DNA from: Mytilus trossulus
Lineage: Eukaryota
NCBI RefSeq assembly: GCF_036588685.1
Contig: NC_086381.1
Location: forward strand, 27,404,001-27,468,000
DNA length: 64,000 nt
Direction of reading: 5' to 3'
The notes below the pieces were generated by a model. That model had not been told where the DNA came from, ran no database searches, and worked only from the letters and a program-made list of their open reading frames with translations. Of this stretch, positions 12,449 to 15,400 are shown one piece after another. How positions within the stretch are numbered: the stretch's first letter is position 1; each line of letters opens with the position of its first letter. The position numbers and the translations under genes were made by a program.

Positions 12449-15400
12449 CTGTAGTCAGAGTTAAGGAGAATGTAATTATTCCAAATGCATTATGGAATCA
12501 TAATAAATGTGAAATATATAAGTAAGTATAATATGCAACTGTTTATCTATAATTAATAAATATGCCAGTTACTAGACCACTTTCAAATTTGTGTACTTTC
12601 CCTGTAATTTTCTGATGTCACCATGCTTATGTTATTGAGAACTATATGTTCAGTAATGCTGGTTATGCCTACGATCAACCAGTGTTACCTTTTCAAATGA
12701 AAACTTGAGATTAGTGTATGTTAAACCTTAGCTTTCAGTATGTTGAAAATATGGGATTGTTATTGTGTGATATATTATGGTGTGCAATGTTTTCACGGAC
12801 AATATTACTATATCTGGAGAAAACAAATCAGACTAAAATCAGTCAAAAACACATAGTATTAGTTCAACAAGAAATAAGTATCAAATAATTCTTAATTAGC
12901 AGATCAAAGTAAGTAATTTTCCTCGTTTAGGTCTAATTCTATCTGAATATCATTTTTAATGTTGAAAATTTGCTGCCTGGAGAATTCAATTCCTTCTTTA
13001 TCTCTTTGACAATATCTGATTTAAGAGTTCAATCGTAAAACTCAATTTCAGCAGGACCATTACAGTTCTATCATGATAGAGTGTAAAAAGGATACATTCT
13101 TCTGTAGCTAACTCTGCCCGTTCACCATAAGCCAGTAGTACTGGTGTTGTATGAGTCTGGAATCCTGTTATAGACTTAGGTTTACCTGCTTGTCCTACTA
13201 CATCTACAGCCTACAAATAAAACAGTGACATTTGTTTAACAACTATGTCAAAGTCAACATAAAATAAATAAGTCCTTGTTTAGGTGTAAACAAGTGAATT
13301 AAAAAAGAAATGGATTTTTTCATCAAATCTGCCTTTCTTTTGAGTATTAATGCTTTATTTTCCCTTATACGTTTTCTCACACTGGTCTTCTAAGAAGGGG
13401 TCTGCACCAGTCATGCTTCAGTGATTCCCTATATAATTAACCAATGTTTACCTACAAGAAGGGGGGGGGGAATACTCCTCTGCATTTGATTGCTTTTTTT
13501 CATTTCTATTTGCCCAATATTTATTCATTTCATAATATGTGAAAAAAATGTGAAACCTGAGAAAACTTTATTAAATATATGAGGTAGAAACTATAAATGT
13601 CTTACCTGTCCAACTCTGACATGTACAGGTGTTGGTCGTAATTCCTCATCAAAAGTGGTCAACATTCTGGGCTGCATGGCTGACACAAGGTGGTACAAAA
13701 TGTAGTGAGATTTTCCTAGGATCACTGTTGAAAATGGAGAAATATTTAGTTTAAATTAAAATTTAGACATCTTTGTCTTATATTTTCAATATAATTTAAA
13801 CTGGTTTGTAGTGATGAACCTTTTGTTAGATCTTTTGTATGGAAACTATACCAAATTTAAACTTAAATTCAGGTGGTACCTAACACTTTAACTAAAATTA
13901 ATTTGGCTTGTTTATTATTTTTTAAATTTTAACAATTTAAAGTATTTACTTTGACCCTTTGACAAAAATATAAAATTTCACAAAATTTGAACCAACCATT
14001 TAATCAGAAAAATTACATTGAGAAGCTTAATATTTCCTTAAGAACAAAACGTCATTAAAACGTTCTGCTGATTTTACAGAGTTATCTCCCTGTAGTGTTA
14101 GGTACCACCTTCAGCATTCCTTTTACTTCATAGATAATCTCTAATTTCAGATAAATGTTGCAATTATATTAAAGAATTTTTGATAGTTGTGGAAATTATC
14201 AAGAATTTGTCAAACCTCTTTTATTCAATAAATTAATTGATATCCAGAAAATATTTTAGATTTGTCACTGCATCTTTATCCAACCATTTTCCAGATTGTA
14301 AAATAAATTCATCTTTTTGTTTGAACTTACGATTTTTAACATCAAGACATGATACACAGACAGCCAGGAGTCCAGCAACAGCTACAGGTGACATGAGTGC
14401 CTTGTCACTATGGTATGGACTAAGGGTCAGGGTACCTTTACCCAGATGTGTAAGTCCCTGGGCCAGTCTTACCATGAACAGATTGTTGGCATCCTTGCCA
14501 TGGTACACAGCTAATTGTCTTAACATGGCAGCCAGACGTGCATTGTTTGTACCTATAAATAAACAAACCATATTGTATTCATAGAATGGGTAAGAAAGGG
14601 AAACATGATTTTTTTTTTAAATGAGACAATAATCTTAGTTTTACATACAAGAACAAGTTTTGTAAAATGGTGGTATAAATATACCAGTGCAGTTTAAATT
14701 ATCCTTCAGTTCCTCTGAATTGAAGTAGTTTTCAAATACAGCTTATTATTAGATGATCCATAATAACATACAGTAATAAGGATGTGTTATAACGTAAATA
14801 AATGTACACTTAAAAATATCATTCATGACTATCAAATGGAATTATTCAACATTCAAAACAAAAGTTTATTTACCTGCACCAACCAGTCCCATTGCCAAAA
14901 TAGCATTATGAGCGACCTCAGGATCATTGTCATGAGAAAATTTACTTAGTGTGTCCAGTATCTGTAGTTTAGGGTTAGACACTGATATCAGACCTAACGC
15001 TACTGGTACTGCTCTCTTGATTGCTACCTCTCCATACCGCAACTACAAATATAAATAATTCAATTACATATAACTTAGTTTGTGTCCATTTCTTGAAATG
15101 AATTGCCCCCCACCCCCTTGACATTTATTTAACAATTACATATATTTACCAGATGCTTTGCAGGGAGCAGTTTTATACGACAGCAGAGGTCGAACCCCAA
15201 ACGGTTAGGGCAAGTATGGACACAACATTCAAGCTGGATTCTGCTCTGAATTTGGATTGTAATTAAATAGTTAACACAGCAAAGGTTTCAGACACAGGAT
15301 AAATGTGGTGTATTGAATTAATTTTATTTTTTTGATTTTGAGCAATACACTATGCTGTTTAATATATATTAATCCTCTCAAAAAAAAGTTTGAAGAAATT

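What the first reader, a model, noticed from the sequence alone, without database searches (positions are those of the whole stretch)
12449..13095. U12-type minor-spliceosome intron controls the last exon of PSMD2
Seen: donor GTATCCTTTT and branch site TCCTTAAC 11 nt before the CAG junction, with no pyrimidine tract. The other 20 introns have ordinary U2-type donors. Known: these are the diagnostic U11/U12 signals, and minor introns are rare and often rate-limiting. Inference: Rpn1 output, including its conserved C-terminal 22 aa, depends on the minor spliceosome in this lineage. I do not recall an intron at this position in vertebrate PSMD2, so it may be an ancestral U12 intron lost elsewhere.
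Basis: partly seen in the sequence, partly recalled or inferred. Interest (0 to 1): 0.7.

Follow-up and report, generated by a model that had tools for sequence, protein, structure and literature searches.

The report
Ancient minor intron in mussel PSMD2
The last intron of this mussel's proteasome gene PSMD2 carries the rare minor-spliceosome (U12-type) signals and is spliced exactly at them; the same spot carries those signals in coral-like, clam-like, worm-like and mycorrhizal-fungus-like DNA, so it is likely an ancient minor intron that vertebrates lost, with no sign so far that it regulates anything.

Summary
Confirmed. Minus-strand intron 13095-12449 (647 nt, phase 1 in Tyr880) is the last of 21 introns of a single-copy Mytilus-type PSMD2/Rpn1 gene. 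It has a GTATCCTTTT donor and a TCCTTAAC branch site 11 nt from the 3' end. Spliced contigs from five runs of five studies join exactly 12448/13096. U11, U12 and U6atac genes are in the genome, and this intron pairs best with them and worst with U1 of all 21. It is not mussel-specific. The same codon position has a GTATCCT donor in 17 of 119 metagenome loci (coral-, bivalve-, annelid-like, a glomeromycete fungus). The tell-tale read-through peptide ends named jellyfish, sea-slug and Entrophospora proteins. U2-type introns sit at the same site in Mucorales-like and protist sequences. A teleost-like locus has none, and PSMD2 is absent from human and mouse minor-intron tables. It is therefore likely ancestral to animals and fungi, and deleted or converted repeatedly. 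Land plants have a U2 intron 2 nt upstream (sliding or parallel gain). 'Controls Rpn1 output' is unshown: no retention signal was seen, though contigs cannot measure it. A well-supported new member of a known kind.

The parts
12381..32784 (-). PSMD2/Rpn1 coding span, 22 exons, 901 aa
   Evidence: tblastn and exon model against M. edulis PSMD2 P0002; RNA joints for introns 9-21; single copy of the penultimate exon in the genome
13096..13210 (-). Penultimate coding exon (exon 21), ends with the first base of the Tyr880 codon
   Evidence: matches human PSMD2 849-886; RNA pieces 13096-13209
12449..13095 (-). Intron 21, GT-AG U12-type, 647 nt, phase 1
   Evidence: joint 12448/13096 with no ambiguity in runs X9, X12, X17, X16, X21; unspliced in DNA run X1
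13086..13095 (-). U12-type 5' splice site GTATCCTTTT
   Evidence: sequence; best U11 (-6.0) and U6atac (-7.3 kcal/mol) pairing and weakest U1 pairing (-1.3) of 21 donors
12460..12467 (-). U12-type branch site TCCTTAAC (branch A predicted at 12461 or 12462)
   Evidence: sequence; best pairing with the genome's own U12 snRNA of 21 intron ends, -10.5 against next -9.8
12449..12451 (-). 3' splice site CAG, 11 nt after the branch motif
   Evidence: RNA joint
12381..12448 (-). Last coding exon: rest of Tyr880, 21 further codons and the stop; about the last 20 of 54 positions of Pfam RPN1_C
   Evidence: matches human PSMD2 888-907; RPN1_C PF18051 spans 852-905 of P0002
12998..13095 (-). Read-through frame if the intron were retained: 32 foreign residues starting C-I-L-F, then a stop
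   Evidence: translation; no contig shows this form as an mRNA

Best explanation
The last intron of mussel PSMD2 has U12-type donor and branch signals and is spliced exactly at them, most likely by the minor (U11/U12/U6atac) spliceosome, and it is likely an old intron inherited from at least the animal-fungal ancestor that vertebrates deleted. Inferred mechanism: U11 and then U6atac pair with the GTATCCTT donor, U12 pairs with the TCCTTAAC branch site, and ligation at the CAG 11 nt downstream rebuilds the Tyr880 codon so that the end of the RPN1_C domain is made. Because the gene is single-copy, every full-length Rpn1 needs this splice. It is most likely a constitutive, housekeeping minor intron whose history (kept in molluscs, cnidarians, annelid-like animals and Glomeromycota; converted to U2 in Mucorales-like fungi and others; deleted in teleost-like, insect-like and basidiomycete-like genes) follows the known loss-and-conversion pattern.
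For: Signals and chance estimate. Exact joint in 5 of 8 runs laid, from 5 studies; the 3 without it (X1, X2, X6) carry unspliced genomic pieces. U12 (5 matches), U11 (3) and U6atac (2) over the Rfam cut-off in the genome. Pairing ranks among 21 introns. The donor and branch resemble the PSMC4 minor intron rows of PMC6717393. Same-site TGTATCCT in 17 of 119 loci, 7 groups after collapsing near-relatives. 8 of 9 with a resolved 3' end have CCTT[AG]A[CT] 9-13 nt from the end, against 0 of 11 U2-type introns at or beside the site. L051 is 77/79 identical to Orbicella, and L050 groups with Funneliformis. Named read-through proteins: Plakobranchus P0007, Rhopilema P0209 (spliced RefSeq form P0239), Entrophospora P0261/P0263; P0212 is 97% identical to Rhizophagus. 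Loss: teleost-like genomic L017 runs straight through; PSMD2 absent but PSMC4 present in two human/mouse minor-intron supplements; mouse Psmd2 has 21 exons (PMC11891003) against 22 coding exons here.
Against: No direct test of which spliceosome acts, and intronIC was not available. The U12 branch pairing margin over the next intron is small (-10.5 against -9.8). The fungal branch site (L050) is degenerate (TTTTGAC, 7 nt from the end). Rhizophagus is unusually rich in minor introns (PMC10639083 section 34), so a parallel gain in fungi is not excluded. The 71 of 120 read-through count is inflated because the query ended in CILF. No tetrapod genomic DNA was examined, so a U2 intron at this site in tetrapods is argued against only by the exon count and recall.
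Confidence: 0.88

Rival explanations
1. The intron is a regulatory throttle: slow minor splicing limits Rpn1 supply, or retention makes a C-terminally altered Rpn1 (32 foreign residues replacing 22), tuning proteasome assembly under stress. This could be true on top of the best explanation.
For: U12 introns show about 2-fold higher retention on average and exosome decay in mammalian cells (PMC4615840, passages). The gene is single-copy. A retained-intron stop would have no junction downstream (inference). One unnamed animal's long intron-free ORF P0182 reads through this intron.
Against: X16 and X21 have zero contig depth across intron bins 12535-13056. X9's depth-2 intronic contig is matched by similar contigs in U2 introns 14 and 2. 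The P0182 cluster also holds read-throughs of ordinary introns (P0243-P0245) and spliced forms (P0246, P0247). Repeated loss and conversion in healthy lineages. PMC10639083 argues that neutral processes explain much minor-intron evolution (passages).
Confidence: 0.15
2. U12-type introns at this codon in animals and in Glomeromycota arose separately (parallel gain, or U2-to-U12 conversion of an older U2 intron), so the minor state is not ancestral to opisthokonts.
For: U2-type introns occupy the same site in Mucorales-like sequences (P0436, 76/77 identical to Lichtheimia; P0450) and in unnamed protists (L008, L120). Rhizophagus has 205 predicted minor introns. PMC11347168 reports 15-20% of human minor introns with an inferred major ancestor.
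Against: Same phase and codon with the same donor in animals, Glomeromycota and three further unnamed protist-like read-throughs that fall outside the animal and fungal clades (P0433, P0462, P0550). Conversion is reported to run mostly minor to major (PMC7367187 and PMC10639083 passages).
Confidence: 0.1
3. It is a minor-like or hybrid intron that the major spliceosome actually splices.
For: It has GT-AG ends and a CAG acceptor, and the -20..-4 region is 71% pyrimidine.
Against: Weakest U1 pairing of 21 donors. No AG at -2/-1 (AT instead), the feature PMC11347168 gives for minor-like introns. Full-consensus donor and branch, conserved together across distant lineages.
Confidence: 0.03

Closest known systems
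GT-AG subtype U12-type (minor) spliceosomal introns, e.g. the PSMC4 (Rpt3) minor intron of human and mouse
   Same: GTATCCT donor with a non-G at -1, CCTTAAC branch close to the acceptor, phase 1, single minor intron among many U2 introns of a housekeeping gene; PSMC4 is another 19S base subunit (rows seen in PMC6717393 supplements).
   Different: Different gene. PSMD2 is not on the human/mouse lists. This intron is the terminal one, and vertebrates appear to have deleted it.
Ancestral minor introns lost by deletion or converted to major type (PMC10639083, PMC7367187, PMC11347168)
   Same: Patchy retention, same-site U2 orthologues, deletion near the 3' end of the gene, conservation between animals and Rhizophagus.
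   Different: This particular PSMD2 case was not found in the texts or supplements searched. Human-anchored analyses miss it because humans seem to lack the intron.
Near-intron pairs / intron sliding (PMC2891723, PMC7730772; search listing and abstract start only)
   Same: Land plants have an intron 2 nt upstream of this site, too close for both to coexist.
   Different: The two introns are of different class (U2 in plants, U12 in opisthokonts). No intermediate was found, so sliding is not shown.

Membership tests
U12-type intron | 5' splice site RTATCCTT | tested here: met
   GTATCCTTTT at 13095; the only GTATCCTT in the window on either strand
U12-type intron | Branch site TCCTTRAC close to the 3' splice site | tested here: met
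   TCCTTAAC 12467-12460, 11 nt from the end
U12-type intron | These sites are the ones used in mRNA | tested here: met
   joint 12448/13096, no ambiguous letters, 5 runs of 5 studies
U12-type intron | Minor spliceosome present in the organism | tested here: met
   U12, U11, U6atac genes over Rfam cut-offs; U4atac and the proteins were not searched
U12-type intron | Complementarity to U11/U6atac/U12 rather than U1 | tested here: met
   rank 1 of 21 for U11, U6atac and U12; rank 21 of 21 for U1 (the U1 5' motif was recalled)
U12-type intron | No polypyrimidine tract | tested here: inconclusive
   no T-run after the branch site, but pyrimidine fraction 0.71 lies within the range of the U2 introns
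U12-type intron | intronIC/PWM score in the minor range | not testable with these tools
   program and matrices not available
U12-type intron | Splicing fails when the minor spliceosome is inhibited | not testable with these tools
   needs a knock-down
Rate-limiting (regulatory) minor intron | Higher retention than neighbouring U2 introns | tested here: inconclusive
   only contigs were available; no excess intronic cover seen
Slid intron (plant intron orthologous to this one) | Near positions that exclude each other, plus intermediates on the tree | tested here: inconclusive
   2-nt offset in 10 plant-type loci; no plant-type CIL read-through among 150 representatives
PSMD2/Rpn1 | RPN1_RPN2_N, PC repeats, RPN1_C; best hits named PSMD2 | tested here: met
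   the Pfam scan was run on the near-identical P0002

The most novel reading that the evidence does not exclude
This is a minor intron as old as the last eukaryotic common ancestor whose fates can all be read at one codon: kept as U12 in invertebrates, Glomeromycota and amoeba-grade protists, converted in place to U2 in Mucorales, deleted in vertebrates and insects, and in land plants converted to U2 while sliding 2 nt upstream. That last step would be a rare case of intron sliding coupled to a spliceosome class switch.
Probability: 0.2. Interest if true: 0.55.

Novelty: new member of a known kind. Interest (0 to 1): 0.35.

Why it matters
It adds a second 19S base subunit (with PSMC4) to the ancestral targets of the minor spliceosome, one that human-centred lists miss. 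It gives a compact single-site case for studying how minor introns are kept, converted, deleted and perhaps slid. Practically, the intron defeats gene callers: at least seven database proteins from molluscs, a jellyfish and mycorrhizal fungi have a wrong Rpn1 C-terminus at this exact site. It does not overturn anything: molluscs are known to be rich in minor introns, and a Mytilus genome is already in a genome-wide survey.

Tried and rejected
Retention as regulation: looked for in contigs of 8 runs and not seen; contigs drop rare forms, so this is no evidence of absence. An intronless retrocopy that would bypass the intron: only one genomic match to the penultimate exon. A plant U12 intron at the same site: 0 of 10 plant-type genomic loci and no plant-type CIL read-through among 150 representatives. 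Naming the protist-like loci and read-throughs (L008, L120, P0433, P0462, P0550): cluster look-ups gave no organism names and the Atlas gave only mixed eukaryote clusters, so they stay 'unnamed, outside the animal and fungal clades' on a weak tree. IQ-TREE timed out. FastTree on about 50-246 positions was used instead; it misplaces several animal groups, and L048 and L120 were dropped for too few positions. Literature: four searches listed no paper tying PSMD2/Rpn1 to a minor intron; only the top 20 of 215 were listed. Supplements of PMC6717393, PMC11347168, PMC10639083 and PMC2846911, and main texts of PMC10639083, PMC11347168 and PMC3291851, had no PSMD2 hit. The supplement of PMC7367187 was listed but not searched. 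The online intron databases could not be queried. The scan's earlier notes held nothing.

Full report
Observation. The coordinates describe a minus-strand intron, 13095 to 12449, 647 nt. It begins GTATCCTTTT, carries TCCTTAAC at 12467-12460 and ends in CAG 11 nt later. The upstream exon matches human PSMD2 residues 849-886 and the downstream exon 888-907. A homology search names the gene: one exon is 100% identical to Mytilus edulis and M. coruscus PSMD2. Using P0002 as a guide, the window gives 22 coding exons, 21 GT-AG introns and an open 901-aa product. The intron in question is the last, in phase 1 of Tyr880, and no other donor resembles GTATCC. GTATCCTT occurs once among 6824 GT dinucleotides on both strands, and the joint chance of donor plus branch motif is about 2e-6 for a 21-intron gene.

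Splicing is real. Eight runs were laid. X9, X12 and X17 and X16 and X21, from five studies, have contigs that join 12448 to 13096 with no ambiguous letters. Only X17 and X21 are on record as RNA; X9 and X12 are guessed and X16 is unlabelled. X1, X2 and X6 carry unspliced genomic pieces, and one X1 contig spans 12452-13109 without a difference. Both joint tables were cut (150 and 104 rows not shown), so rare alternative sites are not excluded. Listed joints also match introns 9-20 in length.

Class. The genome holds U12 (5 matches), U11 (3) and U6atac (2) genes over the Rfam cut-offs. With these snRNAs, intron 21 ranks first of 21 for pairing with U11 (-6.0, next -4.9), U6atac (-7.3, next -3.9) and U12 (-10.5, next -9.8). 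It ranks last for U1 (-1.3; others -3.2 to -12.6; U1 motif recalled). Its signals closely match the PSMC4 minor-intron rows in PMC6717393 (supplement rows). The pyrimidine-tract argument is weak (0.71, within the range of the others). intronIC could not be run and no knock-down exists, so 'spliced by the minor spliceosome' is inference from diagnostic signals, at high confidence.

Distribution from proteins. Reading through a T|GTATCCT donor gives the peptide C-I-L. Of 120 hits to the exon plus four read-through residues, 71 continue with CIL, 16 with other C-starting peptides (same-site GT introns, many U2-like), 30 are spliced or intronless, and 3 missed the motif regex. The query favours CIL, so this shows breadth, not frequency. 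Named cases are the sea slug Plakobranchus (P0007), the jellyfish Rhopilema (P0209, whose RefSeq twin P0239 is spliced) and two Entrophospora proteins (P0261, P0263). P0212 is 97% identical to Rhizophagus irregularis Rpn1. Batillaria, Pomacea and Funneliformis entries go wrong at the same residue.

Distribution from DNA. 17 have TGTATCCT at this codon (17 of 17 CIL loci, which validates the peptide proxy), 3 have a U2-type GTACGG intron at the same site, 10 have a U2 intron 2 nt upstream, and 89 have none. The 17 collapse to 7 groups; 12 loci are one annelid-like clade. Nine have a resolved 3' end: eight show CCTT[AG]A[CT] 9-13 nt from the acceptor and the fungal one a degenerate TTTTGAC, against 0 of 11 U2-type introns checked (two near-duplicates left out). 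L051 is 77/79 identical to the coral Orbicella, L048 is closest to the clams Mactra and Dreissena, and L050 groups with Funneliformis. The 10 offset loci are land-plant-like; six were compared and are 87-97% identical to Brassica. Of the 89 without the intron many are transcripts, but 18 have non-coding DNA just upstream, including the teleost-like L017 and basidiomycete-like loci. A second protein search with a plant exon returned 150 representatives. It added Mucorales-like read-throughs with U2-type starts (P0436, 76/77 identical to Lichtheimia) and three unnamed CIL read-throughs that a weak tree places outside animals and fungi. No plant-type sequence had CIL.

Vertebrates. PSMD2 has no row in the human and mouse minor-intron supplements of PMC6717393 or PMC11347168, while PSMC4 does. 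Mouse Psmd2 has 21 exons with the stop in exon 21 (PMC11891003, passage). L017 encodes the last 60 residues in one exon. That the human last exon starts at Ala849 is recalled, not checked. When in deuterostome history the intron was deleted is open.

Mechanism. Shown: the signals, the splice, the snRNA genes and the single gene copy. Inferred: U11/U12 recognition, U6atac catalysis, branching at 12461 or 12462, and a need for this splice to complete the RPN1_C domain (852-905 in P0002). Retention would replace 22 residues by 32 foreign ones, but such transcripts would more likely be held and degraded in the nucleus (PMC4615840, passages). No retention signal was seen: zero intronic depth in X16 and X21, and the one intronic X9 contig is matched in U2 introns. 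The unnamed P0182 read-through comes from a cluster that also reads through ordinary introns. A regulatory role is possible but unsupported (about 0.15).

Comparison and novelty. This is an ordinary GT-AG minor intron with the known history of deletion and conversion (PMC10639083 sections 28 and 34 and passages; PMC7367187 and PMC11347168 passages). I found no paper naming it (and the supplements listed under Tried and rejected). However, Mytilus galloprovincialis is in the species list of PMC10639083, so it is probably already machine-classified in databases I could not query. The one feature a specialist might pause over is the plant U2 intron 2 nt upstream. The two cannot coexist, and a 2-nt insertion at the start of the last exon plus use of a GT two bases upstream could turn one into the other. 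That route is my speculation; sliding is described as very rare (PMC10639083), and independent gain is at least as likely. Verdict: real, well supported, ancient, new member of a known kind; interest 0.35.

Noticed in passing
L025, L031, L064, L071, L077, L078, L081, L083, L100, L107: Land-plant-like Rpn1 genes have a 78-114 nt U2 intron in phase 2 of the Lys codon, 2 nt upstream of the opisthokont U12 site: a near-intron pair of different class.
   Followed up: partly
P0007, P0022, P0025, P0209, P0261, P0263, P0264: Database Rpn1 proteins of molluscs, a jellyfish and Glomeromycota have wrong C-termini starting exactly at this intron, apparently because gene callers miss the U12 acceptor.
   Followed up: partly
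window 35137-38250 (+) and beyond: A kinesin motor-domain gene (Pfam PF00225; KIF17/OSM-3-like by recall) starts head-to-head with PSMD2, about 2.3 kb from its start codon.
   Followed up: partly
window 34148 and 34004 (-): An ATATCCTT and a TCCTTAAC motif lie 144 nt apart between the two gene starts; possibly chance, possibly a minor intron in a non-coding transcript.
   Followed up: no
P0002 residues about 531-547 against window exon 21383-21221: The public M. edulis protein has a locally garbled, duplicated stretch where the window gives a clean conserved sequence.
   Followed up: no
window about 13390-13444 and 13871-14111: Very high-copy interspersed repeats inside introns 20 and 19 (depth).
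   Followed up: no
window 12312-12332: A (CT)n/(GA)n microsatellite in the PSMD2 3' UTR.
   Followed up: no
G000 C3, C10, C12, C6, C8: Minor snRNA genes are multi-copy: 5 U12, 3 U11 and 2 U6atac matches.
   Followed up: no
P0171, P0173, P0175, P0181, P0206: Read-throughs CIP, CIH and CIF suggest degenerate donors at this site, candidate intermediates of minor-to-major conversion; no DNA was seen for them.
   Followed up: no
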